Part shown: in pieces, positions 4,051 to 60,388 of the stretch
Numbering within the stretch: the stretch's first letter is position 1
How the letters are laid out: each line of letters starts with the position of its first letter
Source: Chiloscyllium plagiosum
Taxonomy: Eukaryota
Assembly (NCBI RefSeq): GCF_004010195.1
Contig: NC_057719.1
Coordinates: forward strand, 1,438,787 to 1,502,786
DNA: 64,000 nt
Direction: 5' to 3'
Notes under the pieces: model-generated
Database searches by the model: none
What the model saw: the letters and a program-made list of their open reading frames with translations, nothing else
What the model was told of the DNA's origin: nothing
Position numbers and translations under genes: made by a program

Positions 4051-4898
4051 CACTGCGCATGATTAGCCTTCTCCTCAGACAGCACCTTTCATTTAATTAG
4101 TAGATGAAACCTTCTAGCCTGTATTGTTTCTGATAGGTTGACCCTGCTTGTAGTTGGTAAACTCATTTGTGCCTCTTTAATCCACAGAGAGAAAAAAAAT
4201 TGCATCTTTCACCTTTCAAGAGCGTCCCTAAGGATTTCATAGCCAGTGAAGTACTTTTGAAATGTAGTCACTGTTGTAATGAAGGAAAGAAAGCTGCCAA
4301 TTTGTTCACAGCAAACTCCTTGAGATGGTTACCAAACAGGTTGATATGGTGTATATGGATTTCAGTAAGGCGTTTGATAAGGTTCCCCACGGTAGGCTGT
4401 TGCACATAATACGGAGGCATGGGATTGTGGGTGATTTAGCGGTTTGGATCAGAAATTGGTGAGCTGAAAGAAGACAGAGGATGGTGGTTGATGGGAAATG
4501 TTCATCCTGGAGTTCAGTTACTAGTGGTGAACCACAAGGATCTGTTTTGGGGCCACTACTGTTTCTCATTTTTATAAATGACTTAGATGAGGGTGTAGAA
4601 GGATGACACTAAGGTCGGTTGAGTTGTAGATAGTGTTGCAGGATGTTGAATGGAATTGAATTGAATTGAATTTATTGTCACGTGTCCCGAGGCATAGTGA
4701 AAAGCTTTGTCTTGCGAGCAATACAGGCAGATCAGAGTTAAATTGCATAGATAAGTCATTGAGTCATAGAGATGTACAGCATGGATACAGACCTTTCGGT
4801 CCAACCCGTCCATGCCGACCAGATATCCCAATCCAATCTAGTCCCACCTGCCAGCACCCGGCCCATGTCCTTCCAAACCCTTCCTATTCATATACCCA

Positions 4899-5090
4899 GG
4901 AGAACGTGAGGACTGCAGATGCTGGAGATCAGAGCTGAAAATGTGTTGCTGGAAAAGCGCAGCAGGTCAGGCAACATCCAAGGGAGCAGGGGAATTGACG
5001 TTTCGGGCATGAGTCTGAAGAAGGGCTCATGCCCGAAACGTCGATTCTCCTGCTCCTTGGATGCTGCCTGACCTGCTGCGCTTTTCCAGC
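4899..5090. mobile_element. Inverted pair of PLE terminal repeats (family A) with a hammerhead motif
   Basis: An antisense tail copy is followed by a sense copy starting at CTGAAGA (5015); ctattcatat is repeated at 4884-4893 and 5090-5099. Confidence 0.85.
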
Positions 5091-15959: not shown

Positions 15960-18560
15960 AAACAGAGCAACAGGACTAGTCCATTTAGTGCCACAAGCTT
16001 CACTCTCATTTTAGATTATGGCTGGTCTACTCCTCAGTGTCATTTTGCCCTACATTACCTTTACCTTTCCCTTCAAAACATTACTCTTCAGAAACCTATT
16101 AGTTTCTGCTTTGAAGCTGATCAGTGATTGACCTTTCATGACCCTCTGGGATAGAAAATGCCAAAGATTCACTATACTGAGTGAAGAAATATCTCCTCAT
16201 TTGTCTTAAAACGTTTGCCCCTTATCCTGAGATTATATTTCCTGGTTCTAAAGTTACCAGCCAGAAGAAATATCCTATCTATATCCTGTTAATGTGCTGG
16301 AACTATTTTATACATCACCCAGTTTCTTGAATCTAGTGATTGTCCATTGAACTCCCTCTATAGCAAGTGCATCCTTCCTTAGATGAGGAGGCCAAAACTG
16401 TACATAGTCCTGCAAGTGAAGTCTCACTAAGATTCCTTGCAACTGCAGAAGGACATCTTTACTTCTGTATTTAAATCCCCTTACTGTTTGCTTTCCTAAT
16501 TGCTTGCTGCACTTAGATACTAACTTTAAGCGATTCATGAACAAGGGAACTGAGATTGCTATGGGCGCTCACACTTCACAATCTCTTGCTATCCAAGAAA
16601 CATTCTGCCTTTGTGCTTTCTCCCAAAGTAAATAACTTCAGACACTTAGTTACATTATATTTACTCCATTCGCCATATTCTAGCCCAATCACTTATCTGT
16701 CAAAATCCTTTTAAAACTTCAACACACCGTCCTCACATCCATTTTATAGAACCAACGAACCCACTCTGGTGGGATTTAGACTGGGGTCCCCAGTATATTA
16801 CCTGAGTCACTGGATGAATATTCTAGCGATAGTACACCTGGGCCATGGCTTCCTGCTGCCTGTTGCATCCAAATCATTTCTATCGACCTATGAATAGCTG
16901 TAATCCTGGATCACCTGTCATCCTGAGAATGTTCTGTTTTTCCTAGTCTCTATTTTCTGTTTATTAGCTAACTGTCAATCCATACCTAGCATATTTTGAC
17001 CAATCTCTTGCACTATAATTTTATTTACTATCCTCCTATATGGGACTTTATCCAAAGCCTTCTGAAATTCCAAATACAGAATGGCCAATGGTTCATCTTT
17101 ATCAGTTCTGCAAGTAGCATCCTCCGAGAACTCCCAACAAGTTTATCAAACGTGATTCCCTTTCGTAAATCCAAGGTAACTCTGATCAGTTTAACCATTC
17201 TTTCCTTGATACCTAGTTATAGATAGTACAGTGTCGAAAAACTAACAGCTCTGTAATTTTCTGTTCTCCCTCTTCCTCCTCCCTAAATTGAGAAATTACG
17301 TTTGTTACTTTCCACTCTGAAACCTTTCCAGAATGTTTAGAATTTTGAATGATGGTAAGTGATGCATCCACTATCTCTTTAGTGACTCTTTCAACACCCT
17401 GTGGTGAAACTCATTTGATCGAGGGAATCCAGTTAACTATTCAGTATGACTTCTCTATTCTTTCAGTGTCACTGAATCAAGAATCTGGAACTCTCTCCCT
17501 AATGGCAAATAGACAGCAGCACGTCAGCTTAAGGACAACAGAGGATGGACAATAAATGTTGGCTCGGCCAGCGCAACCATGTTCCATTAACGTTTGTTTT
17601 TGAAAAATAAGAGACCTCTTTACTGGTGTATTTTCTTTAGCACCTCGGTTTCACAGGTCCCAAGCTTCCTAGTTATTTCTGGAAGATTTTTTTTGTGGAG
17701 GTAGATGCAAAATAACTGTTTAGTTTCTCTGTCATCTGTAATGGGCTCCTGTTTATCCTTGCTAATCTTTCTTCTTTAATGTTTTGACAGAAGCTTTTTT
17801 TCCAATCTGCCTTTATGTTCCTCGCTACCTTGTATTCATATTCTGCTTTTCTTTTCCATGTCTCTTTCTTGGCTGTCCTTTGAGTCCTAAATTGTTCTTG
17901 ATCCTTAGGCTTACCTAAATTTCTGGCATCCTTATAAGCCCCTTCCTTTGATCTAAAGCAATCTTTACCTTCTTTCATTAACTATGGTTTATTCACTTTT
18001 CCGTTTGGATGTTTGTGCCTTAGAGAAATGTACATCTGTTGTAGACCTTGTCATGTTTCTTTAAATACTAGCTATTGCCTGTGTAGTGTCATATCTTTGT
18101 GTATTTTCCCATTCAACCCACGCTAACTTTTCCTCATATGCCTTTAGTTTCCTTTCTTTAGATTCAGGAGCTTAGTTTCAGAATTAATTATATTGCATTA
18201 AATGTAATATAAGATTTTATCGTATTATAGCCATAATTTCCTGATAGCAAGGTTACCAACTAGCCGGTTATTATTACACAACACCAAATCCAAAATGCAT
18301 TGATTCCAAGTTGACTTCCGAATATGCTGTTTGAGAAACCTACCTTGCATGTATTACAGGAATCATCCTTCACAATATTGTGACAGCTTGGTTAACTAAT
18401 TCCTGAAGAAGGGCTCATGCCCGAAACGTTGATTCTCCTGCTCCTTGGATGCTGCCTGACCTACGCTTTTCCAGCAACACATTTTCAGCTCGTAACTAAT
18501 TCAATGCCTAAGTTGAAGTTGTCTGTTATTACTGTGTTGCCCATGTTATGTAAATCCCTA
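15960..18560 (-). mobile_element. Old, heavily decayed CR1 ORF2
   Basis: GFKYRSKDVLLQL..ILVRLHLQDYVQFWPPHLRKD and EYEYKVARNIK...LNSYFAS. Confidence 0.65.
18403..18492 (+). mobile_element. Short PLE tail insertion (family A) starting at the hammerhead CTGAAGA box
   Basis: TSD taactaattc at 18393-18402 and 18493-18502. Confidence 0.85.
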
Positions 18561-19199: not shown

Positions 19200-19912
19200 G
19201 GTAAAAAAAATGACAGCAGATGCTGGAAACCAGATTCTGGATTAGTGGTGCTGGAAGAGCACAGCGGTTCAGGCAGCATCCAAGGAGCTTCGAAATCGAC
19301 GTTTCGGGCAAAAGCCCTTCATCAGGAATAAAGGCAGTGAGCCTGAGCGCGGAGGGGTGGGGAGAAAGTAGCAGAGTACAATGGGTGAGTGGGGTAGGGG
19401 ATGAAGGTGATAGGTCAGGGAGGAGAGGGTGGAGTGATAGGTGGAAAAGGAGATAGACAGGTAGGACAAGTCATGGGGACAGTGCTGAGCTGGAAGTTTG
19501 GAACTAGGGTGAGGTGGGGGAAGGGGAAATGAGGAAACTGTTGAAGTCCACATTGATTCCCTGGGGTTGAAGTCTTCCGAGGCAGAAGATGAGGCGTTCT
19601 TCCTCGAGGCGGAAGAGGCGTTCTTCCTCCAGGTGTCTGGTGGTGAGGGAGCGGCGGTGAAGGAGGCCCAGGACCTCCATGTCCTCGGCAGAGTGGGAGG
19701 GGGAGTTGAAATGTTGGGCCACGGGGCGGTGTGGTTGATTTGTGCGGGTGTCTCGGAGATGTTCCCTAAAGCGCTCTGCTAGGAGGCGCCCAGTCTCCCC
19801 AATGTAGAGGAGACCGCACCGGGAGCAACGGATACAATAAAAGGTATTAGTGGATGTGCAAGCAAAACTTTGGATGTGGAAGGCTCCTTTAGGGCCTTGG
19901 ATAGAGGTGAGG
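19200..19912 (-). mobile_element. PLE 3' part (GIY-YIG C-terminus and terminal repeat, family B)
   Basis: AQHFNSPSHS..DMEVLGL...RLEEERLIFCLGRLQPQGINVDF; hammerhead motif at 19296-19327. Confidence 0.88.
19296..19327 (-). ncRNA. Minimal hammerhead motif (family B); other copies at 53131-53162 (-) and 54651-54682 (+, mutated stem II)
   Basis: The reverse complement reads TC-CTGATGA-A-GGGC-tttt-GCCC-GAAA-CG-TC-GA. Confidence 0.75.
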
Positions 19913-20429
19913 GCTGGGTGCTGGCAGGTGGGACTAGATTGGGTTGGGAAATCTGGTCGGCATGGATGAATTGAACCAAAGGGTCTGTTTCCATGCTGTA
20001 CATCTCTGTGACTCTATGACTCTAATAATTTTGCACTTCGCTGGTATGAACTCCATTCATCACTTCCCCTCTCACTCAATCAAAACATTAATATGATCCT
20101 GCAATTGACAGCCATCCTCTTTACTACATGACCAGTTTTTGTCTCTGCAAATTCACAAACACAGCTCCCATATTTTAATCTAAATATTCATGCATGACAC
20201 AAGCAGCAAGGGGCCTAAACCTAAGCACAGTGGAACAGCACTAGAAAGCACTTTCCAGTTGCAAAAACAGCCATCCACCACTACCCTTTATTTCCTGACA
20301 CAGTGTTAATTTTGAATCCAACTCGACGCAATCCCCTGTATCCCGTAGACTTTAATTTTCCCTGACAGTCTGTCATGTGAGACATTGAGTTACTAAAATG
20401 TTGACATCATCAATTGAGGGGCCTTGTCA

Positions 20430-21485
20430 AAGGCTTTAAAGGAACCAGAAAAAGACCTCATGGCAGACTGGTGCAAAAAGTGAAGACACATTGTATCAGG
20501 GATAAGCTGGCCGATGGATACAAAACTAGCTTAGTCATAGGATGTAGTGGGTAGAGGTGGAAGGATGTTTTTTGGAATGGAGGGCTATCACTAGTGGTGT
20601 CCCACAGGGCTCAGTGCTGGGACCTCTGCTGTTGGTGAGCTACGTAAATTATTTGGAGGAAAATGTAGCTGGTCTAATTATTAAGTTTGTGGATTATACA
20701 AAAATTGAAGGAGTTGTGGGTAGTGAGGAGGATTGCCAGAGGATGCAGATGGATATAGATCAGTTGGAGGCATGGGCAGAAAAATGGCAGATGGAGGATA
20801 ATCCAGTCAAATGTGAGGGGATGCATTTTGGAAGGTCAAGTACAGGTGGAAATTATACAGTGAATGGCAGTACCCTTAGGAGTATTGATGTGCAGAGGGA
20901 TCTGGGTTTGCAAGTCCACAGATCACTGAAGGTGGCAGTGCCAGGAGATAAGGGAGTAAAAATGGTCGATGGGAAGCTTGCCTTCATTGGAAGGGGCATT
21001 GAGTATCAGGATAGACAAGTCATGCTGCAGCTCTGTAGAACTTTAGTCAGGCCACATTTGGAATACTGCATCCAGTTCTGGTCACCACACTACCAGAAGG
21101 ATGTGGATGCTTTGGGGAGGGTACAGAGAAGGTTTACCAGGATGTTGCCTGGTCTGGGGGATTCTAGTGATGAAGAAAGGTTGGATAGACTGGGTTTGTT
21201 TTCACTGGAATGCAGGAGGTTGAGGGGTGACCTGTTAAAAGTTTATAAGGTTGATAAAAGAAATGTGCGAGGCAAGTTTTTCACACAAAGTGTGGAATGT
21301 GCCCCCTGAGGTGGTGGTGGAAGCAGACACAATCGCTGCATTCAAGAAGCACCTGAATGAATACATGAATAAGAAGGGAATGGAGGGATACGAAGACAGT
21401 TTTAATGGTGGAAAGGCGTCATGTGTTGGTGCAGGCTTGGAGGGCCGAAGGGCCTGTTCCTGTGCTGTATGGTTCTCTGTTCTTT
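20430..21485 (+). mobile_element. CR1 LINE RT and 3' end
   Basis: ORF 20557-21309 contains [21 protein letters not shown] and LVRPHLEYCIQFWSPHY. Confidence 0.9.
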
Positions 21486-27402: not shown

Positions 27403-27542
27403 TGAAAATGAGCCTGAAGAAGGGCTCATGCCCGAAACGTCGATTCTCCTGCTCCTTGGATGCTGCCTGACCTGCTGCGCTTTTCCAGCAACACATTTTC
27501 AGCTCTGATCTCCAGCATCTGCAGTCCTCACTTTTTCCTCCC
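27403..27542 (+). mobile_element. Short PLE tail insertion (family A) with an intact hammerhead motif
   Basis: 17-bp TSD tgaaaggtgaagggagc at 27386-27402 and 27543-27559; CTGAAGA at 27414. Confidence 0.9.
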
Positions 27543-33194: not shown

Positions 33195-36100
33195 GATTTG
33201 GGGAGCATCAGCTCTTGACCTTGTCCAACAGGTATGAGATTTTTGCTCTCTGTGTGGATGAGGAAAAAGGCTGTGGACAGGATGAGCCAGCTGACTACGG
33301 CACCATGGTGCAGAAGGCCATTCAAGAGTGGGGGAGCATAAAGACAAGTAGTTGTTATAGGGAATTCTATTATTGGGGCACAGATAGTATCCTTAGCGAG
33401 CTGGATCGGGATTCCTGCATGGCTCCCACATGGTGTATTGCTTGCCTGATGCCAGGGTGCAGGACACCTCTGACCGGCTTGAAAGGATATTGGAGCGGGA
33501 GGGAGAAGATCTAGTTGTTGTGGTCCATGTTGGCACTAACAACATAGGCAAGGCTAGAAAGGAGGACCTGTTTGGGGATTAACCAGCACGGGGAAGGAAA
33601 TTGAAGAACAGGGTCATAATCTCCGGATTACCGCCCGAGCCACGTACTAATTGGCACAGGGATAAGAAAATTAGAGTAGTAAGCACATGGCTAAGAGATT
33701 GGTGTGGGAAAGAGGGATCCCATTTCATGGGACATTGGCATCAGTTTTGGAGCCGGGGGAGGTCTCTCCCGGTGGGATGGTCTCCACCTGAACCGATCTG
33801 GAACCAGTGTTCTAGTGAAAAGGACAAATAGCGTGGTCAGTAGGACTTCAAACTTGTGGAGGAATGGGAAAGGGAAAGCGACAGGAAATATAGTGTCAAG
33901 TAGAAAGATAAGCAGCAGGTTAGCATGTGTGCAGGGTTTAAGTTCAAGATAGACTAGGAATGAAGCAAAAAGGAAGGATAACTTAGGACATATTACTAGA
34001 GATGTTGGAAATCATGAAGATAAGAAAATTAGCATTAAGGTGCTTTACCTGAATACTCGTAGTATTTGGAACAAAGCAGATGCATTAATGGCACAAATCA
34101 TTGTGAATGATTATGATGTGGTAGGCATCATAGAGACGTGGTTGCAGGGGATTCAGGACTGGCAATAAAACATCCAAGGATTTACAACTTATCGAAAAAA
34201 AACAGGAAATGGACAGAGGGGCCGGAGTTGCTTTGTTAGTTAATTGGGATTGGGTTAGAAAGCCATGGCTGACAAAGGAAGTCAGGAAATATATCAAAGA
34301 AAGAGAGAGCCTACAAAGTTGCCAACAGCTCTTGAAAATCAGTAAAATTGGGAAGACCAAAAAACAGAGGATAACAAAGAGAGAAATAAGGAAGGAGAGG
34401 ATCAAATATGAAGATAGGCGAGCCAGTAATATTAGAAATGATAGTAAAAGTTTCTTTCAAAACGTAAGAAACAAACGAGAGGCAAAAGTAGACATTGGTC
34501 CACTCCAAATTGATGCAGGAAGGCTAGTGATGGGAGATAAGGAAATAGCTGAAAAACTTAATAAATACTATGCATCAGTCTTCACATTGAAAGACATGAG
34601 TAATATCCCAACAATTAAGGAGAGTCAAGGGGCAGAGTTGAGTATGGTAGCTATTACTAAAGAGAAAATGCTAGAAAAGCTAAAAGGTCTAAAAATTGAT
34701 AAATCTCCTGGCTCCAGTGGGCTACCTCCTAGAATTCTGAGGGAAGTGGCTGAGGAAATAGCGGAGGTGTTGATTGTGATCTTTCAAAAGTCACTGGAGT
34801 CCGGGAAAGTCCCGGATGATTGGAAGATCGCTGTTGTAATCCCATTGTTCAAGAGAAGATCAAGACAAAAGATGAAAAATTCTCGGCCAATTAGTCTAAC
34901 CGCGGTTATTAGTAAAATTCTAGAGTTCATCGTTAAGGATGAGATTTCTAAATTCTTGGAAGTTTAAGGTTGGATTAGAACAAGTCAGCATGGATTTAGT
35001 AAGGGGAGGTCGTGCCTGACAAACCTGTTAGAATTCTTTGAAGAGGTGACAAGTAGGTTCTAGACCAGGGAAACCCAGTGGATATTATCTACCTAGACTT
35101 CGAAAGGCCTTTGATAAGGTGCCTCACGAGAGGCTGCTGAGTAAGGTGAGGGCCCATGGTGTTCAAGGTGAACTACTGACGTAAATTGAGGGTTGGCTGT
35201 CTGACAGAAGGCAGAGAGTTGGGGTAAAAGGTTCTTTTTTGGAATGGCAGCTGGTGACAAATGGTGTCTCGCAGGGTTCTGTGTTGGGGCCGCAGCTGTT
35301 CACTTTATATAGTAATGATCTGGATGAAGGGACTGGGGGCATTCTGGCAAAGTTTGTCAATGATACAAAGTTAGGTGGACAGGCGGGTAGTTCTGAGGAG
35401 GTGGGGAGGCTGCAGGAAGGTTTAGACAGTTTAGGAGAGGGGTCCAGGAAATGGCGGATGAAATTCAACCTGAGCAAATGTGAGGTCTTGCACTTTGGAA
35501 AAAAGAATACAGGCATGGACTATTTTCTGAACAGTGAGAAAATTCATAAAACCAAAGTACAAAGGGATCCGAGAGTGCTAGTCCAGGTTTCTCTGAAGGT
35601 TAACTTGCAGGTTAAGTCCGTGATTAAGAAAACGAATGCAATGTTGTCATTTATCGCAAGAGGGTTGGAATATTAAAACAGCAATGTGCTTCTGAGACTT
35701 TATAAAGCTCCAGTTAGGTCGCATTTAGAATACTGTGTCTAATTTTGGGCCACACACCTCAGGAAGGGCATACTGGCATTGGAGCGTGATCAGCAGAGAT
35801 TCACACAGATGATCCCTGGAATAGCAGGCCTAACATACGATGGATGGCTGAGGATCCTGGGATTGTATTCATTAAAGTTTAGAAGGTTGAGGGGAAATCT
35901 CATAGAAACTTACAAGATAATGCATGGTTTAGAAATGGTGGACGCTGGGAAGTTTTTGTTTCCGTTAAGTGGGGAGATTAGGACCCGTGGGCACAGCCTT
36001 AGAATTAGACGAGGGTCAATTTAGAACGGAAATGAGGAGACATTTCTTCAGCCAGAGAGTGCTGGGCCCGTGGAATTCATTGCCACGGAACACAGTCGAG

Positions 36101-37506: not shown

Positions 37507-37841
37507 AGTTAAAAATCACACAACACCAGGTTATAGTCCAACAGGTTTATTTGGAAGCACACTAGCTTTCGGAGCGATGCTCCTTCATCAGGTGATAGTG
37601 GAGGGCTCAATCCTAACAGAATTTATAGCAAAGATTTACAGTGTGATGTAACTGAAATTATACATCACACTGTAAATTTTTGCTATAAACTCTGTTAGGA
37701 TTGAGCCCTCCACTATCACCTGATGAAGGAGTGGTGCTCCGAAAGCTAGTGTGCTTCCAATTAAACCTGTTGGACTATAACCTGGTGTTGTGTGATTTTT
37801 AACTTTGTACACCCCAGTCCAACACCGGCATCTCCAAATCA
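37507..37841. mobile_element. Foldback PLE terminal-repeat element (family D); arms about 144 bp (37507-37650 and 37661-37804), each with a hammerhead motif
   Basis: The arms are reverse complements by direct reading; probable TSD ttt(a/g)tattcc at 37496-37505 and 37842-37851. Confidence 0.85.
37717..37751 (+). ncRNA. Minimal hammerhead motif (family D); reverse-strand twin at 37560-37594
   Basis: CAC-CTGATGA-A-GGAG-tggtg-CTCC-GAAA-GC-TA-GTG with palindromic AGCT; the twin has stem II GGAGC-atc-GCTCC. Confidence 0.72.
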
Positions 37842-44400: not shown

Positions 44401-46964
44401 TATGTTTCAATAATGTCATTTCTCGTACTTGTAAACTCCAATGACAACAGGCTCAGCTTCTCCTTATAAGGCGGTCCATTTATACCCAATGTCGACCCAG
44501 TGAACCTTCTTTCTCCTGCCTCCACTGTCAGTATATCTTTCCTTGGATGAGGGGACCAAAACTATCCACAGTATTCTAGCTGTGGTCTGACTAGTGCTTG
44601 CTACAGTATTTTTATACCTCACTTCCTTCGAAATTCCATTTACCTTTCCTATTTGCTGCTGAACCTGGGTGCTAGACTTTTGTGATTCTTGCATGCCTTA
44701 TGACCCCAACACCATTGGTTCTTATCTTAATAAGTAGTCGAGAGTGTGGGTCTTATGAAAAATCCACTGTATTACATCCAATCTTTCCCCCTTACCCTAC
44801 TTATTACCTCCTTAAGGAATTCTAATAAATTTGTCAGGCAACATTTTTCCCTTAATGAAGCTATGTTGAAACATTCAAGAAGGCATTAGAAGATTATTTG
44901 AATAGAAGCAACATTCATCCCTATATAGGCAAAAGCAGGAGAATAATTGATTGATTTTATTACTATTTTAAAGAACTGATCTAGACACAATGGGCTGAAT
45001 GGTGACCTTCTGTACCATAACGATTCTCTGATAATTAAATAAACAGTGAAGTATGCTCTACACCTGAAATTCAGCCTACCATTTGTCTGCCTTTTCCACT
45101 GACTTATGTTCTGCTGAAGCCTCTTACAGTATCCAGTGTTTGCCAAATAGACAATTATGTTGCAGCAATCATTTTAAGATTGTGTCTGAGTCCAAAAAAT
45201 CTATAGGTTTTTGCCCACACATCTCTCATTTTGAGTGACTGAGGCCAGTTGCAGCAGTTCTCCATTTGCCGAGATTAGCTAGCTAAAGTGCAGAATGGGG
45301 ATTAAACAAGGGTCCTTGGTGGACTGTGTGGTTCTGCATTCCACTAATTGGCCACTTAAACGATTGGCGAGCTCTTTTGTTGTTGCTTTCACCGTTTCTC
45401 TTTCAATGCTGAGTTTTAAGCAAAACAAAAGGTCTATTTTCATGTAAGTCTGTGATTTAAATCTGTCTTCCCAGTTGAACATGTTATGTAATGCTGAAGT
45501 GATGGTGGCGGAGGGTGACTTCATAGCTGTTTTGTGTGGTACCACACTGTGCATTGAGCTGTCCATATTGGTCATTCTTTCAGTGATGCTTCTGACAAAG
45601 GAACTTTTTTTGGGTTACAGTGGGATGATGTCACTATGTCACGGTGACTAAACTGATTAAGTGATTTATCAGCTCAGTAGTTGTGGGAACTACATAATTT
45701 GGTTGAGGGAGGGAGGGAAGCCAGGAGCAGGGTGTTGCTGTATAATGTAGTGAGCAGCTTGCACATATTTAATGACAGTGAAATCCTAACAACTGCAGAA
45801 CAAATTTTATCATGGGATTGGGGGTGGGGTGGGGAATATTCTGCAACATCTGCAGACATTGTAAATGTTTTCATGTCCACTTTATCAATGTTTCACAGCT
45901 CTGATTGTTTAGTTGGATGTGGGTGGGGGAGGTGGGGAATGGATGATTGGCCACACAGTAGGGAAGACAGATTCTGATCTTGCAGGACCAGGAATAACAC
46001 CAGCAGACTTGCCAGGAACACTGTGTACAATAGTCCTTTATTTAGACCTCTTATTAAACTTTCACAGAACTAAACAGAAGCAGGAATCACAATGCCCTGT
46101 ATGGGTCCATCTGCAGCATGTCAGATTCAGTCAATAAAAGATTTATATCTGGCAGAGCCCATTTGTGCTTCTGACAGAAGGCTGAAGGGGAAGGATGTAC
46201 AAGAGTTTCTGTGCAGTTTGAGAGGAAAAGGGCAGGCTACGAAGATGTTGAACCACTGTGAACATCAAACTTCCTCAGCCCTGGAGCAACAATGATGTTG
46301 ATTAGAAATTGTTTATATTCTGCTTTCAGGGAAGGTGCTTGGGGGTAGGAAAGGAGGAGGCAGAAAGAAGATTGAATATATATGAGTTACCGATTGCTGT
46401 AAAAACCCATTTGAACACGTACCCTTAACACCCAGATTTGCTATACCCCTTAGCCTGAGGGACCTTCTGTACTGAGTAATTGATACCAATTTTCACAGAT
46501 CTGTTCCTGTTTTTCAGTGAATGTGTGGGACTGCAGATTATCTTAGGGGGAATCGTTGTTCCGAGAGTTTGTGCAGAGGTGTAATCTACATTTGGATGCT
46601 TAACAATTTTCTTTGTTCTCCTTCCTCCATGATTCGCCTGCCCCTCCCTTGAACAAAATGGTACTTTTTTTTGTGTAACGTGATGAATGCAAAAATGATG
46701 AATGCTGGAAACCCAAACGGGAAATGCTGGAAATACACAGGTCATTACTGAGACCAAAGGAGGAAATGAGCTGGCATGCTTCCAGTTCTGACCCAGTTGT
46801 TGTCTTCCACTTATGTTACCAAATGCAGAACTGAAATGAATTCAGGAGTTACTTGCTGAACTGCCAATATTGTACCAAATACAAATTTTATTCAGTGTCC
46901 ATCAATTTGGTTCAACTGATCAGGTAAAGAGCCCAGCTTTAGTCCTTAGTCTGTACTAAGTTAT

Positions 46965-48290
46965 TTGCAAGGTTTGTGAAGGTTTGTAGCTCAGGTTGAG
47001 GTTTAGGGTGTAGGTTTGCTCGCTGAGCTGTAGGTTTGATATCCAGACGTTTCATTACCTGGCTAGGTAACATCATCAGTGGCAACCTCCAAGTGAAGCG
47101 AAGCTGTTGTCTCCTGTTTTCTATTTATATCGTTCTCCTGGATGGGATTCCTGGGGTTTGTGGTGATGTCATTTCCTGTTCGTTTTCTGAGGGGTTGATA
47201 GATGGTATCTAGATCTATGTGTTTGTTTATGGCGTTGTGGTTGGAGTGCCAGGCCTCTAGGAATTCTTTGGCATGTCTTTGCTTAGCCTGTCCCAGGATA
47301 GATGTGTTGTCCCAGTCGAAATGGTGGTTTTTTTCATCCATGTGTAGGGCTACGACGGAGAGAGCGTCGTGTCTTTTTGTGGCTAGCTGGTGTTCGTGTA
47401 GCCTGGTGGCTAACTTTCTTCCTGTTTGTCCTGCATAGTGTTTGTGGCAGTCCTTGCATAGAATTTTGTAGACGACGTTGGTTTTGTCCATGGGTTGTAC
47501 TGGGTCTTTTAAGTTTGTTAGTTTTTGTTTGAGTGTGTTGGTGGGTTTGTGTGCTACTAGGATTCCGAGGGGTCTTAGTAGTCTGGCTGTCATTTCTGAA
47601 ACTTCTTTGATGTATGGTAAGGTGGTTAGGGATTCTGGCTGTGTTTGGTCTGCTTGTCATGGTTTGTTCTTGAGGAATCTGCGTACTGTATTTTTTTGAG
47701 TATCCGTTCTTCTTGAATACGTTGTATAGGTGGTTCTCCTCTGTTTTCCGAAGTTTGTCTGTGCTGCAGTGTGTAGTGGCTCGTTGGAATAGTGTTCTGA
47801 TACAGCTTTGTTTGTGTGTATTGGGATGGTTGCTGGTGTAGTTAAGTATTTGGTCAGCGTTTGTCGGTTTTCTGTATACGCAGGTTTGTAGCTCTCCGTT
47901 GTCCTTTTTTTCGACTGTGACGTCCAGGAATGCGAGTTTGTTGTCGGTTTCTTCCTCCTTGGTGAACTTTATGCCTGTGAGGGTGTTGTTGATGATGTTA
48001 AATGTCTCTTCTATCTTGTTTGGTTGTGTGATGGCAAAAGTGTCATCTATGTAGCGGACCCAGATTTTTGGTTTGGCACTCCAACCACGACGCCATAAAC
48101 AAAACACATAGATCTAGATGCCATCTATCAACCCCTCAGAAAACAAACAGGAAATGACATCACCACAAACCCCAGGAACCCCATCCAGGAGAAAGATATA
48201 AATAGAAAGCAGGAGACAACAGCTTCGCTTCACTTGGATGTCACCACTGATGATGTTACCTAACCAGGTAATGAAACGTCTGGATATCAA
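46965..48290 (-). mobile_element. 5'-truncated PLE (family C, Poseidon-like RT and GIY-YIG) with an inverted terminal-repeat copy at about 48075-48290
   Basis: KIWVRYIDDTF...IKFTKEEE...LAFLDV...VYRKPT and NVVYKILCKDCHKHYAGQTGRKL..RLHEH; TSD actaagttat at 46955-46964 and 48291-48300. Confidence 0.92.
48244..48283 (+). ncRNA. Minimal type I hammerhead ribozyme motif (PLE family C); reverse-strand twin at 47043-47082
   Basis: CCA-CTGATGA-T-GTTACCT-aacc-AGGTAAT-GAAA-CG-TC-TGG: stem I CCA/TGG, stem II, GAAA box and palindromic ACGT; predicted cleavage after C48280. Confidence 0.8.
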
Positions 48291-51200
48291 ACTAAGTTAT
48301 CTTGGTTGGGGCATGACGTGGGATAGAACGAGGGGTTGGTTGTGGGCATATAGAATATGTGGGTGTCTTATAATGATTGAAGGACTTCTCACTGGAAATG
48401 TATATTGGCTATAGTTTCTGATGTATATGCTTCCTGTTGTTCAATAAGCATGTCAACAGCTTGTAAACTGTCATCCTATACTACTAAATTTTAGATTTAG
48501 GTTTCATTGTCATGTGTACTCAGGTATGGGGTACAAGAGTACAGTGAAAAGTGTACAATCTTGCCACACACGGTGCCATCTTAGGTACAAAGTCTTAGTT
48601 ACAGAAATAGAAAAATAAAGAAATGAGTTAGAAAGTTCACCACTTCAGTTTTCTTACTATAAAAGTAGGAAAATAAAGAGATAAAGTTTAAAAAGGCAAA
48701 CGTTTCAGTCCTTTTTTAAGCAGATGCCCCAAGCTGGGCTTTCCCCAAGTGGGCTCACACTCCCCTGCATTGGGCACACTTTCACCCACACTGGCCCAAG
48801 TTCTGCCAGTGCTCACCAGCTGCCTGTGCTGCTGCTGATCTCCAGGCTTTGCTCCTGATTGCAAGGCTTCGGCCCCGACTGCAGCTGCCTTCGCCATCGC
48901 CGCTTCATTGCTGACTACTGTTATCCGGGCTCACACTGGGCCCCAGCTGCTGCCACACCCCATTGCCATGTTAGCCCCCTTGCTGCAGAGTTCCACTTTG
49001 GTACCATTCCGGATATTAATGAAGCCGTGATGCTGCTGACTGCAACCAGCTGCCTCATGGCCAACGTCAAAGACCCCAGCCACTGCCATCATCACCATTG
49101 CTTCATAACCTAGCTCGAAAGACTAAAGAACTAAAAGGAAGAAAGGAGAAAAAGCGAGGAATAAAGAAGAAAAAAGCTGTCAGAGTGAATTTGTGACTCT
49201 TACTAAAGTCACCTATTTTCACCTTCAACATTGCCAAAACCCTCGTCCATGCTTTTGCCAGCTCCAGATGTGAGTTTTTCTAGTAGGAACTTGTTCAGGC
49301 TCATCCTCCACACTGTAAGCTTCAGCTGATTTGAGCTGTATTAGTACCAACCCTGTCTTTTCTAAATAATATTCTCTTTGTTCTCCGATTCTTCCTATTT
49401 ATAATTCAGAGCTTCCTGTTTAATTCCTTTGACCACCAAGGTTTTTCTGGGAGAGGGGAGAAAGAGGGGCACAGAGAGAGATTGGAAGCAGTGAATGATG
49501 GGTAACATATTTTTGGACACTCATGAAATCAATGGAATAAGGCAGGAGTATTGAGTTGAGATAGCTGATAGCTATGTTGTTATTGAGTCACTTCACAAGC
49601 TAGAAAGTCCAAATTGCTGATCCTGTTTATGGACCTGTACAGTCTGATTCAATCTTACTGACCGATGGAAGTTGGCAGCACTAAGATCTTCATTTGACAG
49701 TCAAGGTTTGAAAGCAGTAATTGCTGAACGGAATCAGCATCCTTCCAATTCTGTGGTATGGATGGATTATTACACACTGTGATTAGAGATTCACTTTATA
49801 CCAAACTTAAGTGATTCAAAGCTGGCTTTGGCATATGTTTCACAGGGTACTGGTTGTACACATGACCTTCCGTATAAAACAAATTAGCCTGTGAAAAAAT
49901 GAGAGATCATTTTCTTCTCTCGTATGTTTTCTTCTTCCCACCCCTCCCCCAAAACCCACCAAAGGTACTTGCTGCCTTATTTGGGTGCAGTCTCACAGTT
50001 GGGTGGTTCTGGGGTTTGATTGGTCTGCTGATGAACTTGGTTAAGGAGTATTGAAGAAAAATAGCTCCAAGAGCTGCCAGAGCTGGCTTCTGTGTCTAGC
50101 AAATAATGGATGGTCACTATCTTCCTCAAATCTTTTACATAAAACTGTGTTATAGCCAAACCGGGTTGGCTTTCTGTGTGGCTAGTCTTGTCTGCTTTCT
50201 TTCCCCCAAGGATTATAAGACCATATGAAATAGGAAGAAAAGTAGGTTGTTTGGCCCCTTGAGCCTGCACTGCTATTCAGTAGGATCATGGCTACTCTAA
50301 GACCACCACCACCACCACCACCACCAACTCAAGGGCAGCTAGGGAATGGCTATAAATGGTCAGTAGTGCCCATGTGCCACAAAGTGAATGAAAAACAGAT
50401 GGTGATTACCTGGTATTCCTAAGGTATGAATGTTAGTTGCCACTTGGTAGTGGAGTGGTGATCCAAAACCGAGGCCAGTGGGTTGGTGACATGATTCAAT
50501 ACTGTCATGGCATATGGTGAAATTTGAATTTGATTGAAAAAGAACCTTGGAAGCATTTCATTGTTGTAAAACCCATTTACAAACTGGTTTACTAAGGCCT
50601 CTCTATCCCTCATTGCTAATTCCCCTGACTCATTTTCTGTTGAACCTATGCTTTCTTTGTTAACTTTTTTTTAAATAGCTGAAGAAACATCTATCTGATT
50701 TTATATTTTTGGCGAGCTTTGTCTCATATTCTAATTTTTCCCTGTACTCTTTTTGGAGCTCTTTGCTGTTATTTATGTTCTGTCTGCTCTTCTGACCTGC
50801 CACTTATCTTTGCAAAATTACATCTTTGAGTTTGATAATATTTTTGACATTTTTACTTAACCGTGGATGGTGGGTCTGTCCCTTAGTTTCTTTTTATTTG
50901 TTGGAATGTATCTACTCTGTTTATTTTGGAATATCCCCTTAAATAATATTACAATTCAGTTGACCTAGCCCTTAACCTAAATTGCCAGTTTGCTTGCACT
51001 AGCCCTGCTTTCGTACCCTCATAATTTCCCTAGTTTAAATTCAAAATATTTGTCTTTGACTCAAACTTCTCTCTCATAAACTCTACCTAAAGTTTAATCA
51101 TGTTATGCTCACTGCTACCCACTACAGTATTACTGACTGATATAAGATCAATAATTAATCCTATCTTATTGGTCAAATCCAGCCTGCTCGCTGGTGCCAT

Positions 51201-53068: not shown

Positions 53069-54780
53069 ATTCTGGATTAGTGGTGCTGGAAGAGCACAGC
53101 AGTTCAGGCAGCATCCGAGGAGCAGTAAAATTGACGTTTCGGGCAAAAGCCCTTCATCAGGAATAAAGGCAGAGANNNNNNNNNNNNNNNNNNNNNNNNN
53201 NNNNNNNNNNNNNNNNNNNNNNNNNNNNNNNNNNNNNNNNNNNNNNNNNNNNNNNNNNNNNNNNNNNNNNNNNNNNNNNNNNNNNNNNNNNNNNNNNNNN
53301 NNNNNNNNNNNNNNNNNNNNNNNNNNNNNNNNNNNNNNNNNNNNNNNNNNNNNNNNNNNNNNNNNNNNGGGGAGTTGAAATGTTGGGGCACGGGGCGGTT
53401 TGGTTGATTGGTGCGGGTGTCTCGGAGATGTTCCCTAAAGCGCTGTGCTAGGAGGCGCCCAGTCTCCCCAATGTAGAGGTGACCGCATCGGGAGCAACGG
53501 ATACAATAGATGATATTAGTGGATGTGCAGGTAAAAGTTTGATGGATGTGGAAGGCTCCTTTAGGGCCTTGGATAGAGGTGAGGGAGGAGGTGTGGGCGC
53601 AGGTTTTACAGTTCCTGCGGTGGCAGGGGAAAGTGCCAGGATGGGAGGGTGGGTTGTTGGGGGGGCGTGGACCTGACCAGGTAGTCACAGAGGGACTGGT
53701 CTTTGTGGAAAGCGGAAAGGGGTGGCGAGGGAAATATATCCCTGGTGGTGCGGTCCGTCTGGAGGTGGCGGAAATGTCAGCGGATGATTTGGTTTAGAAC
53801 ATAGAACAATACAGCACAGAACAGGCCCTTCGGCCCACGATGTTGTGCCGAACATTTGTCCTAGCTTAAGCACCCATCCATGTACCTATCCAATTGCCAC
53901 TTAAAGGTCACCAAAGATTCTGACTCTACCACTCCCACAGGCAGCGCATTCCATGCCCCCACCACTCTCTGGGTAAAGAACCCACCCCTGACGTCTCCCC
54001 TCTACCTTTATGTGAAGGTTGGTAGGGTGGAAGGTGAGCACCAGGGGCATTCTGACCTTGTTACGGTTGGAGGGGTGGGGTCTGAGGGCGGAGGTGCGGG
54101 ATGTGGACGAGATGCGTTGGAGAGCATCTTTAACCACGTGGGAAGGGAAATTGCGGTCTCTAAAGAAGGAGGCCATCTGGTGTGTTCTGTGGTGGAACCG
54201 CTCCTCCTGGGAGTAGATACGGCGGAAGCGGAGGAATTGGGAATACAGGATGGCATTTTTGCAAAGGTAGCTGCAGGACGAGGTGTAATCCAGGTAGCTG
54301 TGGGAGTTGGTGGGTTTGTAAAAAATGTCAGTGTCAAGTCGGTCGTCATTAATGGAGATGGAGAGGTCCAGGAAGGGGAGGGAGGTGTCAGAGATGGTCC
54401 AGGTAAATTTAAGGACAGGGTGGAATGTGTTGGTGAAGTTGATGAATTGCTCAACCCCCTCGCGGGAGCACGAGGTGGCGCCAATGCAGTCATCAATGTA
54501 GCGGAGGAAGAGGTGGGGAGTGGTGCCGGTGTAATTACGGAAGATTGACTGTTCCCTCCCCCACTCACCTATTGTACTCTATGCTACTTCCTCCCCACTG
54601 TCACCCTCCTCTAGCCTTATCTCTCCATGCTTCAGGCTCTCTGCCTTTATTCCTGATGAAGAGTTTTTGCCCGAAACGTCGATTTTACTGCTCCTCGGAT
54701 GCTGCCTGAACTGCTGTGCTCTTCTAGCACCACTAATCCAGAATCTGGTTTCAAGCATCTGCAGTCGTTGTTTTTACCTG
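53069..54780 (-). mobile_element. 5'-truncated PLE (family B, Neptune-like) with an inverted terminal repeat at about 54555-54780; inserted in a CR1 tail and itself interrupted by a CR1 tail at about 53796-54006
   Basis: FPCHRRNCKTC...CTSTNIIYCIRCSRCGHLYIGETGR and antisense RYIDD; TSD ga(g/a)tcagagag at 53058-53068 and 54781-54791. Confidence 0.88.
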
Positions 54781-54781
54781 G

Positions 54782-56010
54782 AATCAGAGAGGTGTACAGA
54801 ACAGAAACAGACTCTTTGGTCCAACTCGTCCACGCCGACCAGATATCCCAACCTAATCTAGTTCCATTTACCAGCACTTGACCCATATCCCTCTAAACCC
54901 TTCCTATTCATATACCCATCCAGATGCCTTTTAAATGTTACAATTGTACCAGCCTCCACCACTTCCTCTGGTAGCTCATTCCATACACATACTACCCTCT
55001 GAGTGAAAAGGTTGCCCCTTAGATGTGTCTTATAATTTTCCCCTCTCACCTTAAACCTCTGCCCTCTCGTTCTGGACTCCCCCACCTCTGTCTATTTATC
55101 CTATCCATGCCCCTCATGATTTTATAAACCTCTATAGGGTCACCCCTCAGCCTCTGACGCTCCAGGAAAAACAACCCCAGCCTGTTCAGCCTCTCCCTAT
55201 AGCTCAAGTCTTCCAATCCTGGCAACATCCTTGTAAATCTTTTCTGAACCCTTTCAAGTTACACAATATCCTTCCGATAGGAAGGAGATCAGAATTGCAC
55301 GCAATATTCTAAAAGTGGTCTAACCAATGTCCTGTACAGCCACAGCATGACCTCCCAACTCCTGTACTCAATACTCTGACCAATAAAGGAAAGCATACTA
55401 AATGCCTTCTTCGCTATCCTTGGCCCATCTGATCAAGATCCCATTGTATTTTGGGGTGACTTTCTTCACTGTCCACTACACCTCCAATTTTGGTGTCATC
55501 TGCAAACATACTAACTATATCTCCTATGTTAATATCCAAATCATTTATATAAATGATTTGGATAAATAATTAAAAGTAGTGGATCCAGCACTGATCCTTG
55601 TGGCACTCCACTGGTCACAGGCCTCCAGTCTGAAAAACAACCCTCCACCACCACCCTTTGAGCCAGTTTTGTATCCAAATGGCTAGTTCTCCCTGTATTC
55701 CTTGCTAATTAGTCTCTCATGGGGAACCTTGTCGAATGCCTTACTGAAGTCCATGTAGATCACATCTACCGCTCTGCCCTCATCAATCCTCTTTGCTGCA
55801 TCTTCAAAAAACTCAATCAGGTTCCTGAGACATGATTTCTCATGCTCAAAGCCATGTTGACTATCCCTAATCAGTCCTTGCTTTTCCAAATTTGTGTATA
55901 TCCTGTCCCTCAGGATTCCCTCCAACAACATGCCCACCACTGACGTCAGGCTCACTAGTCTATAGTTCCCTGGCTTGTTACCGCCTTTCTGAAACAGTGG
56001 CACCACCTTA
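54782..56010 (-). mobile_element. CR1 LINE RT and 3' end
   Basis: PGNYRLVSLTSVVG...DSQHGF...AVDVIYMDFSKAFDKVPH and GNLFTQRVVCVWNELPE. Confidence 0.9.
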
Positions 56011-58197: not shown

Positions 58198-58326
58198 GAT
58201 ACCTGAAGAAGGGCTTATGCCCGAAACGTCGATTCGCCTGTTCCCTGGATGCTGCCTGACCAGCTGCGCTTTTCCAGCAACACATTTTCAGCTCTGATCT
58301 CCAGCATCTGCAGACCTCACTTTCTC
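58198..58326 (+). mobile_element. Short PLE tail insertion (family A)
   Basis: TSD ctgtataacat at 58187-58197 and 58327-58337; CTGAAGA at 58203. Confidence 0.9.
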
Positions 58327-58556: not shown

Positions 58557-60282
58557 ACCTCATCACCTCAGGGGATCTCCCATCCACCGCCTCCAACCTC
58601 ATAGTCCCACAACCCCGCACCGCCCGTTTCTACCTCCTGCCCAAAATCCACAAACCTGACTGCCTCGGCCGACCCATTGTCTCAGCCTGCTCCTGCCCCA
58701 CCAAACTCATCGCTGCATACCTCGACACGGTCCTGTCCCCCTTAGTCCAAGAACTCCCCACCTACGTTTGGGACACCACCCACGCCCTCCACCTCCTCCA
58801 TGATTTTCACTTCCCCGGCCCCCAACGCCTTATCTTCACCATGGATATCCAGTCCCTGTACACCTCCATCTCCCATCACGAAGGCTTCAAGGCCCTCCGC
58901 TTCTTCCTTTCCCGCTGACCCAACCAATACCGTTCCACTGACACCCTCCTTAGACTGACTGAACTGGTCCTCACTCTGAACAACTTCTCTTTCCAATCCT
59001 CCCACTTCCTCCAAACCAAAGGAGTAGCCATGGGCACCTGCATGAGCCCCAGCTATGCCTGCCTCTTTGTCGGATATGTGGAACAGTCCATCTTCCGCAG
59101 CTACACTGGCACCACCCCCTACCTTTTCCTCCGCTACATCGATGACTGTATTGGCACTACCTTGTGCTCCCACGAGGAGGTTGAACAGTTCATCCACTTT
59201 ACTAACACCTTCTACCCGACCTCAAATTTACCTGGACCGTCTCAGACTCCTCCCTCCCCTTCCTAGACCTCTCCATTTCGATCTCGGGCGACCGACTCAA
59301 CATGGACATTTACTATAAACCGACCGACTCCCACAGCTACCTAGTCTACACCACCTCCCACCCTGCCCCCTGTAAAAATGCCATCCCGTGTTCCCAATTC
59401 CTTCGCCTCCGCCGAATCTGCTCCCAGGAGGACCAGTTCCAATACCGAACAACCCAGATGGCCTTCTTCTTCAAAGATCGTAATTTCCCCTCAGACGTGG
59501 TTGACGAAGCTCTCCACCGCATCTCCTCCACTTCCCGCTCCTCTGCCCTTGAGCCCCGTCTCTCCAATCGGCACCAGGACAGGACCCCACTGGTCCTCAC
59601 CTACCACCCCACCAACTTCCAGATACACCGTATCATTCTTCGTCATTTCTGCCAGCTCCAAGTAGACCCCATCACCAGGGATATATTTCCCTCCCCTCCC
59701 CTATCAGTGTTCCGGAAAGACCACTCCCTCCGCGACTCCGTCGTCAGGTCCACAACCCCCACCAACCCAACCTCCACTCCTGGCACCTTCCCCTGCAACC
59801 GCAAGAAATGCAAAACTTGTGCCCACACCTCCCCCCTCACTTCCCTCCAAGGCCCCAAGGGATCCTTCCATATCCGTCATAAATTCACCTGCACCTCCAC
59901 ACACATCATTTACTGTATCCGCTGCACCCAATGTGGTCTCCTCTANNNNNNNNNNNNNNNNNNNNNNNNNNNNNNNNNNNNNNNNNNNNNNNNNNNNNNN
60001 NNNNNNNNNNNNNNNNNNNNNNNNNNNNNNNNNNNNNNNNNNNNNNNNNNNNNNNNNNNNNNNNNNNNCCTTCCACCTATCGCATTCCCAACGCTCCTCC
60101 CCCAAGTCCCTCCTCCCTACCTTTTATCTTAGCCTGCTTGGCACACCCTCCTCATTCCTGAAGAAGGGCTCATGCCCGAAACGTCAATTCTCTTGCTCCT
60201 TGGATGCTGCCTGACCTGCTGCGCTTTTCCAGCAACACATTTTTCAGCTCTGATCTCCAGCATTTGCAGTCCTCACTTTCTC
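58557..60282 (+). mobile_element. 5'-truncated Penelope-like retrotransposon (family A, Neptune-like): RT, Cys-rich linker, GIY-YIG and hammerhead-bearing terminal repeat
   Basis: FYLLPKIHK...RPIVS, MDIQSLYTSI, GVAMGT.MSPSYA, RYIDD, YYKPTDSH and FPCNRKKCKTC...IIYCIRCTQC; TSD ctgtttgactgta at 58544-58556 and 60283-60295. Confidence 0.95.
60155..60188 (+). ncRNA. Minimal hammerhead motif (family A) in the 3' terminal repeat of the long PLE
   Basis: CTGAAGA(60158)-A-GGGC-tcat-GCCC-GAAA-CG-TC; related copies at 5015, 18403, 27414 and 58203. Confidence 0.75.
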
Positions 60283-60301
60283 CTGTTTGACTGTAGAGGC
60301 T

Positions 60302-60388
60302 ATCAGAGCTGAAAATGTGTTGCTGGAAAAGCGCAGCAGGTCAGGCAGCATCCAGGGAACAGGAGAATCGACGTTTCGGGCATAAGCC
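60302..60388 (-). mobile_element. Short PLE tail copy (family A), inverted relative to the adjacent long PLE
   Basis: Reverse complement of about 60165-60255; ctatca at both ends. Confidence 0.8.

What the first reader, a model, noticed from the sequence alone, without database searches (positions are those of the whole stretch)
47043..48283. Hammerhead ribozyme motifs in four unrelated Penelope terminal-repeat families
Seen: four otherwise dissimilar tails keep CTGA(T/A)GA, a base-paired stem II, GAAA, 2 nt and TH. Family A is GGGC-tcat-GCCC/GAAACGTC, B is GGGC-tttt-GCCC/GAAACGTC, C is GTTACCT-n4-AGGTAAT/GAAACGTC with stem I CCA/TGG (the coordinates given here), and D is GGAGC-atc-GCTCC/GAAAGCTA with stem I CAC/GTG. 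Stem III is reduced to a palindrome (ACGT or AGCT), and the CG-to-GC swap preserves it. Established: PLE pseudo-LTRs carry minimal type I hammerheads thought to cleave as dimers through such palindromes. More than a dozen intact or decayed copies occur in 64 kb.
Basis: partly seen in the sequence, partly recalled or inferred. Interest (0 to 1): 0.7.

Follow-up and report, generated by a model that had tools for sequence, protein, structure and literature searches.

The report
Penelope hammerheads at capped RNA starts
The motifs are real but belong to a known kind of tiny, weakly self-cutting RNA fold carried by Penelope-like jumping genes, and the ends of the genomic copies suggest that the fold sits at the capped front of the element's RNA, is usually copied uncut, and is probably cut only occasionally.

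Summary
Observation confirmed: 11 intact minimal type I hammerhead (min-HHR) motifs in 64 kb against 0.075 by chance, plus 7 damaged ones. They are pseudo-LTR ends of Penelope-like elements (PLEs), as described in PMC4209133. Two corrections: A and B are one lineage (81% DNA, 70-75% protein identity), so there are three lineages, not four; and the two motifs at 47043-48283 lie on opposite strands of one dead, 5'-inverted Poseidon-type insertion, so they cannot dimerise in cis. The genome holds at least 76,069 exact cores, and helices I and II covary between Poseidon subfamilies. Beyond print: many copies start 0-12 nt before the core, and the base in front is an extra G in 92 of 100 (D) and 65 of 100 (A) listed junctions, but not in B (33 of 100). 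This suggests reverse transcription running off a capped, uncut RNA. Two of 30 U6 loci join a B tail exactly at the cleavage bond, hinting at occasional cleavage in vivo. Cleavage itself was not tested. This scan noted both patterns before on other DNA of this genome.

The parts
46965..48290 (.). One 5'-truncated Poseidon-type PLE insertion (family C): body on the minus strand, with an inverted copy of its 3' end at the 5' side
46955..46964 (+). Left copy of a 10-bp AT-rich target-site duplication
   Evidence: flanks printed
48291..48300 (+). Right copy of the 10-bp target-site duplication (its first two bases could also belong to the element)
   Evidence: flanks printed
47043..47082 (-). min-HHR of family C with helix I (3 bp) and helix II (7 bp); predicted cut after 47046; the ATG that likely starts the ORF in tandem copies lies at the start of helix II
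48244..48283 (+). Second min-HHR of family C, in the inverted piece; predicted cut after 48280
46965..47045 (-). AC-rich long 'tail' behind the hammerhead; in tandem copies it is the start of the ORF
48074..48290 (+). Inverted 3'-end copy (about 217 bp, 95-97% complementary to 47034-47251)
47337..48073 (-). Remnant of the RT catalytic (YIDD) and thumb region; in another frame than the endonuclease part
47066..47656 (-). GIY-YIG endonuclease remnant (Pfam E 0.0033, below the curated cut-off); no cysteine linker before it
37507..37840 (.). Family D (Neptune-like lineage): head-to-head pair with cores at 37591-37563 (-) and 37720-37748 (+); AGCT palindrome, predicted cut after CUA
5015..5042 (+). 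Family A core, short fold-back copy (inverted partial copy at 4898-5013)
18403..18430 (+). Family A core, short copy
27414..27441 (+). Family A core, short copy with long tail to about 27539
58203..58230 (+). Family A core
60158..60185 (+). Family A core at the end of a Neptune-type ORF remnant (59206-59943); helix I broken
19298..19325 (-). Family B core behind a GIY-YIG remnant (19507-20013)
53133..53160 (-). Family B core behind an RT and GIY-YIG remnant (53371-54578); inverted partner with damaged helix II at 54653-54680 (+)

Best explanation
These are minimal type I hammerhead motifs in the pseudo-LTR ends of three lineages of endonuclease-bearing Penelope-like retrotransposons; the window's copies are likely inert relics, and in active elements the motif likely sits at the capped front of the RNA, is usually copied uncut, and is predicted to cut only now and then, as a protein-assisted dimer. 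Shown: the motifs, their place behind GIY-YIG ORF ends, covariation of helices I and II between subfamilies, two fixed tail ends per family, the pile-up of 5' ends just before the core in A, B and D, an extra G there in A and D, and two U6 copies joined at the cleavage bond. Inferred: (1) a promoter in the pseudo-LTR starts RNA 4-9 nt before the core in the A and D lineages; (2) the RT starts at one of two sites in the tail, as shown in vitro for the anole element PAc; (3) when it starts in the front copy of the tail it runs off the 5' end after 90-130 nt, copies the cap as G and often folds back, giving the short and head-to-head copies; (4) cleavage would remove the cap and leave a 5'-OH end, which RtcB could join to U6.
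For: Chance control. GIY-YIG hits and motif-to-ORF spacing. Exact cores genome-wide: C 2,129, D 12,186, A/B 61,754, reversed-pattern controls 0. Covariation in 12 Poseidon-lineage copies: 91.7% of cells paired, 3 of 10 pairs changed on both sides, 1 of 500 shuffles reached the covariation score, slid controls 30-42% paired. In L188 the frame runs open for about 148 codons from the start of helix II into the N-terminal region, the layout reported for PAc (PMC11167929). 5' starts 28-35 nt before the cut site: 51 of 144 A and 30 of 85 B copies in 974 kb; at the cut site 3 and 0. Clean junctions genome-wide in A: 2,412 at -32, 2,307 at -31, 381 at the cut site, 124 at +4. Base before the junction, first 100 listed, counted by eye: G in 92 (D; 698 junctions in all), G in 65 (A at -32) against 18 one base further in (binomial tests). 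Extra G is the accepted cap signature in L1 and SVA insertions (PMC3287187, passages). U6: 2 of 30 fetched loci (of 48 matches) continue directly into a B tail at position 0.
Against: No cleavage was measured. The extra G did not replicate in family B (33 G to 67 A), where palindromic fold-back junctions dominate. Family C, the subject of the coordinates, shows little pile-up (7 short of 30) and its start site was not tested genome-wide. No neighbouring-position control was run for D. Many G junctions abut an inverted copy that also has G there, so microhomology could contribute. The active dimer fold lies 9-21 kcal/mol above the best co-fold for intact B, C and D pairs. RNA reads (one single-cell poly(A) run, about 2% read, species identity not established) show no pile-up of ends at the cut site or at the proposed start. 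The U6 evidence is two loci, both family B.
Confidence: 0.72

Rival explanations
1. Same motifs, but the 5' boundary is cut by the element's own endonuclease, or set by fold-back microhomology, and does not mark a capped RNA start.
For: PAc endonuclease prefers an ATT motif near the ORF-pLTR junction (PMC11167929), and the A/B boundary begins with ATT. Many junctions are fold-backs with short microhomology. B lacks the extra G.
Against: Neither predicts a non-template G in 92 of 100 D junctions with varied upstream bases, or G at -32 but not at -31 in A. The D boundary does not begin with ATT.
Confidence: 0.15
2. The hammerhead cleaves efficiently as a dimer and the cleaved, possibly circularised RNA is the normal transposition template (the model proposed in PMC4209133).
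For: Palindromic helix III and family-specific helix I allow homodimers on paper. U6 joined at the cut bond in 2 of 30 loci implies that cleaved ends exist.
Against: Nearly all copies keep the core intact across the cut site. Junctions at the cut site are 381 against 2,412 at -32, and by eye most of the first 100 are inversions, internal deletions or 1-nt indels. HHR mutants did not affect PAc insertion in vitro (PMC11167929).
Confidence: 0.08
3. The motif no longer cleaves in this genome and is kept only as a promoter, start-codon or protein-binding structure.
For: Active fold not favoured by nearest-neighbour energies. Helix I is only 2 bp in most A/B copies. No RNA end pile-up. Naiad PLEs thrive without HHRs (PMC8557442).
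Against: All catalytic core positions are kept across lineages whose proteins are 26-38% identical; U6 junctions fall on the scissile bond.
Confidence: 0.05

Closest known systems
Minimal hammerheads (min-HHR) in pLTRs of metazoan PLEs, including fish Xena, Poseidon and Neptune (Cervera and de la Pena 2014, PMC4209133; parts 1-2 of 4 read, supplements not seen)
   Same: [quoted passage not shown]
   Different: At least 76,069 exact cores here against about 4,000 (coelacanth) and 9,000 (Xenopus tropicalis) reported there; no cartilaginous fish is named in the parts read; their supplementary alignments could hold such motifs.
Poseidon of Anolis carolinensis, PAc (Frangieh et al. 2024, PMC11167929; parts 1-2 of 4 read)
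   Same: Family C has the ORF start at the beginning of helix II (cut 28 nt after the ATG; 26 in PAc), an AC-rich tail inside the ORF start and two tail ends, the long one about 108 nt into the ORF (PAc RT start 111-118).
   Different: PAc was assayed (HHR cleaves only with protein, is not needed for insertion); nothing was assayed here. A cap footprint is not mentioned in the parts read.
Neptune-clade PLEs (Craig et al. 2021, PMC8557442; passages read)
   Same: A/B carry a CX4CxxC linker before the GIY-YIG domain; a D-like fragment has CX2CxxC; inverted 5'-truncated copies and optional 30-40 bp tails.
   Different: No tree was built, so clade placement rests on the linker motif; in B the likely ORF start lies about 136 nt behind the cut site (one junction).
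U6/LINE-1 chimeras made by RtcB ligation (Moldovan et al. 2019, PMC6789731; abstract and outline read)
   Same: Full or near-full U6 ending in its U tract, joined to a retroelement RNA and retrotransposed.
   Different: The partner is a PLE tail and the joint falls on the predicted ribozyme cut, which would supply the 5'-OH.
Non-LTR retrozymes of animals (bioRxiv 10.64898/2026.07.22.740005; part 1 of 5 and passages read)
   Same: Short non-coding type I HHR units related to PLE pLTRs.
   Different: Defined there as tandem arrays; the copies here are dispersed single or head-to-head units with varied junctions.

Membership tests
Metazoan PLE min-HHR | CUGANGA ... GAAA NN UH core with helix II | tested here: met
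Metazoan PLE min-HHR | Unpaired nucleotide 9/10.1 and G10.1 pair | tested here: met
   69 of 72 hits fit the bulged register; G10.1 pairs with C in A, B, D and with U or C in the C lineage
Metazoan PLE min-HHR | Palindromic 15.2-16.2 | tested here: met
   of 97 hits in unselected DNA, 50 CG, 16 GC, 24 CpG-decay forms (TG, CA), 7 other
Metazoan PLE min-HHR | Helix I closing the type I fold | tested here: met
   3 bp in C and D with a compensated third pair in the C lineage; only 2 bp in most A/B copies, 4 bp in one A subfamily
Metazoan PLE min-HHR | Location in the pseudo-LTR of a PLE | tested here: met
Metazoan PLE min-HHR | Self-cleavage as a dimer or with protein help | not testable with these tools
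   only indirect: U6 junctions at the cut bond; folding energies do not favour the active dimer
Rfam hammerhead models (Hammerhead_1 and others) | Score at or near the gathering threshold | tested here: not met
   no hammerhead family listed
EN+ PLE, Penelope/Poseidon clade (family C) | RT followed by C-terminal GIY-YIG without a cysteine linker | tested here: met
EN+ PLE, Penelope/Poseidon clade (family C) | pLTR overlaps the ORF start; optional tail; inverted 5' copy; target-site duplication | tested here: met
EN+ PLE, Penelope/Poseidon clade (family C) | RT phylogeny with named references | not tested
   no named reference proteins were held; no tree built
EN+ PLE, Neptune clade (A/B, D) | CX2-5CxxC linker between RT and EN | tested here: met
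   clear in A/B; for D seen only in a D-like fragment (L208) without a linked core
Non-LTR retrozyme | Tandem arrays of HHR-bearing units | tested here: not met
   among 39 intact cores in unselected DNA, 5 same-family neighbour pairs within 4 kb, 3 inverted and 2 on one strand; no arrays seen

The most novel reading that the evidence does not exclude
The genome is a fossil record of the PLE RNA cycle: the hammerhead sits within about 10 nt of the cap in Neptune-type lineages, the abundant 90-130 bp copies are run-off cDNAs of the capped, uncut leader, and the ribozyme works as an occasional self-decapping switch whose 5'-OH product is caught by RtcB (U6 chimeras). Helix I and the ACGT/AGCT palindrome would keep the three lineages from cutting each other.
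Probability: 0.5. Interest if true: 0.65.

Novelty: new member of a known kind. Interest (0 to 1): 0.36.

Why it matters
The motif class was described in 2014, so the finding as written is ordinary. What remains open in print is what the hammerhead does in endonuclease-bearing PLEs (stated as unclear in PMC8557442; dispensable in vitro in PMC11167929). The junction patterns give single-base predictions for the RNA start and the cut, so the question becomes directly testable in a genome with tens of thousands of copies.

Tried and rejected
Rfam scans found no hammerhead. The weak U6 hit at 55178-55286 is a chance match inside LINE-like DNA. Three same-strand pairs or long copies of family C in the genome proved to be separate truncated or gapped insertions; no intact full-length tandem element was found. 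A search of solved structures with the C RT fragment gave nothing relevant. A genome-wide excess of 5' ends at the cut site was looked for and not found once inversions and indels were set aside by eye. No RNA holder on record was listed for the C junction; run X22 laid no reads and is no test. Poly(A) loose ends behind the C tail were not counted, because the genomic sequence there is A-rich and oligo-dT priming explains them. Slower decay of core positions in individual A/B copies was not seen beyond filter bias (0.082 against 0.112 mismatch, 121 copies), consistent with neutral relics. Lunse et al. 2017 could not be read; I know it only from its title and the summary in PMC6765202. Searches for sharks with PLE hammerheads, for a cap or untemplated G in Penelope and for U6-Penelope chimeras listed no paper on these points; subscription papers and supplements were not seen.

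Full report
Observation. The four motifs are in the sequence as written. A descriptor of core, helix II of at least 3 bp, GAAA, a self-complementary dinucleotide and TH finds 11 hits in the window; 200 order-3 Markov controls give 0.075 on average and never more than 1. One more copy has a damaged helix II (54653) and six decayed or cut copies show by BLAST, 18 in all. Rfam lists no hammerhead at gathering score or at E up to 10; its models evidently need a helix III.

The locus. 46965-48290 is one insertion between two copies of a 10-bp AT-rich target-site duplication. Its body lies on the minus strand: an RT remnant with YIDD, a GIY-YIG remnant in another frame (Pfam E 0.0033, below cut-off), the hammerhead and an 81-nt tail. 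At its 5' side is an inverted copy of the last 217 bp. This is the standard inverted, 5'-truncated PLE architecture (PMC8557442 and PMC3846280, passages read). The two hammerheads are therefore on opposite strands, and a transcript of the insertion folds the motif into the long inverted-repeat hairpin. This copy cannot form a cis dimer.

Three lineages, not four. The A and B tails are 80.7% identical over 114 nt and their proteins 70-75% identical; A/B, C and D proteins are 26-38% identical to one another. C lacks a cysteine linker before the endonuclease (Poseidon type); A/B carry CX4CxxC (Neptune type); D has its own GIY-YIG ORF 700-800 nt upstream of its core. No tree was built. Relatives of the C protein carry RT domains, two of the 120 listed also GIY-YIG; the best named hits are from a shark and from trematodes, which together with the 3.56-Gb genome suggests a cartilaginous fish (inference).

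Abundance and covariation. Exact cores number 2,129 (C), 12,186 (D) and 61,754 (A/B), with zero reversed-pattern controls. In 12 copies of four Poseidon subfamilies, 91.7% of cells pair, 3 of 10 pairs change on both sides, and 1 of 500 shuffles reaches the covariation score; slid controls pair 30-42% (the copies are related and were picked with a helix II filter, so this is support, not a probability). Of 97 hits in unselected DNA, 66 keep CG or GC and 24 are CpG-decay forms. Individual copies decay in the core about as fast as in the tail, so selection acts on the source elements, not on the relics.

Layout of the active element. Among 20 loci holding the 5' part of the C ORF, seven have the hammerhead 216-233 nt upstream with no gap; in one (L188) the frame stays open for about 148 codons from the start of helix II, the others are frameshifted. 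This matches PAc, where the ORF begins at helix II (PMC11167929, parts 1-2 read). Each family has a short and a long tail end about 35 nt apart (read by eye; histograms), as expected from the two internal RT start sites of PAc. One B junction among 35 long-tail copies places a likely ORF start about 136 nt behind the cut site.

Where copies begin. In 974 kb of unselected DNA, 51 of 144 A copies and 30 of 85 B copies start 28-35 nt before the cut site, at the 5' edge of helix I; 3 and 0 start at the cut site. Of 166 A/B cores in all held DNA, 120 lack upstream element sequence, with varied flanks or fold-backs (a few belong to other subfamilies). D has 34 short of 79, C only 7 of 30. Genome-wide clean junctions in A number 2,412 at -32, 2,307 at -31, 381 at the cut site and 124 at +4; most of the first 100 at the cut site are inversions, internal deletions or 1-nt indels. 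The base before the junction, counted by eye in the first 100 listed, is G in 92 for D, 65 for A at -32 against 18 at -31 (P about 1e-15 against background), and 33 G to 67 A for B (no excess). In A and D the first base is an A in an initiator-like context (consensus recalled, not from a call). An extra 5' G is attributed to cap copying in L1 and SVA (PMC3287187, passages), and Drosophila Penelope has an internal promoter in its pLTR (PMC2377424, passages). I read this as RT running off a capped, uncut RNA. The rival is endonuclease cutting at ATT or fold-back microhomology. The start site of C remains open.

Does it cut? Not tested. On paper each lineage forms a 4-bp helix III and its own helix I as a homodimer, while A/B with C lacks helix I and D with the others lacks a full helix III; the active fold is well above the minimum-energy co-fold. 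This agrees with the low in vitro activity in PMC4209133 and the protein dependence in PMC11167929. This fits RtcB ligation of U6 to a 5'-OH end (PMC6789731, abstract) and is indirect evidence of occasional cleavage. One single-cell RNA run gave 330 reads on a C junction, mostly in the orientation expected for sense RNA, and 2,358 on an A copy, on both strands, with no pile-up of ends; these probably come from copies inside host transcripts.

Comparison and verdict. It works like, and by every sequence feature tested is, a metazoan PLE min-HHR (PMC4209133). It is not a tandem retrozyme array. The host lineage, the copy number, the cap footprint and the U6 joints were not found in print; Lunse et al. 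2017 and all supplements were not seen. New member of a known kind; interest 0.36.

Noticed in passing
L151, L152, L156, L158, L159, L161, L164, L165: The same A-type ORF piece, 99.9-100% identical between loci, sits inside family D elements at eight places with different left junctions; likely an assembly gap-filling artefact, possibly a young chimera.
   Followed up: no
L033:2036-2662 (family C RT region): Best named relatives are a bamboo shark protein (55%) and trematode proteins (47-53%), almost equally close; horizontal transfer was not tested.
   Followed up: no
L206:8051, L228:2761, L114:4966, L210:7043, L111:6222, L150:6356: At least three more Poseidon-type subfamilies and three further min-HHR variants, one with a 4-bp helix I opening on U-A.
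   Followed up: partly
window 37582-37729 and 60217-60338: Head-to-head or tail-to-tail PLE copies form long perfect hairpins that score as microRNA precursors in Rfam below gathering score; false positives for miRNA annotation.
   Followed up: no
L236, L239, L244, L250; L243, L247, L252, L255-L260: Many U6 copies are followed by other repeats (tRNA-like SINE heads or a shared unit), so U6 chimeras with several retroelement types exist in this genome.
   Followed up: no
window 6994-7677, 20548-21306, 34134-35676: LINE-type RT fragments (Pfam RVT_1 for the first two); no host exon was looked for in the window.
   Followed up: no
window 1796-2750: An older, more diverged Neptune-type PLE remnant (44-54% protein identity to A/B) ending in a decayed core near 2718.
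   Followed up: partly
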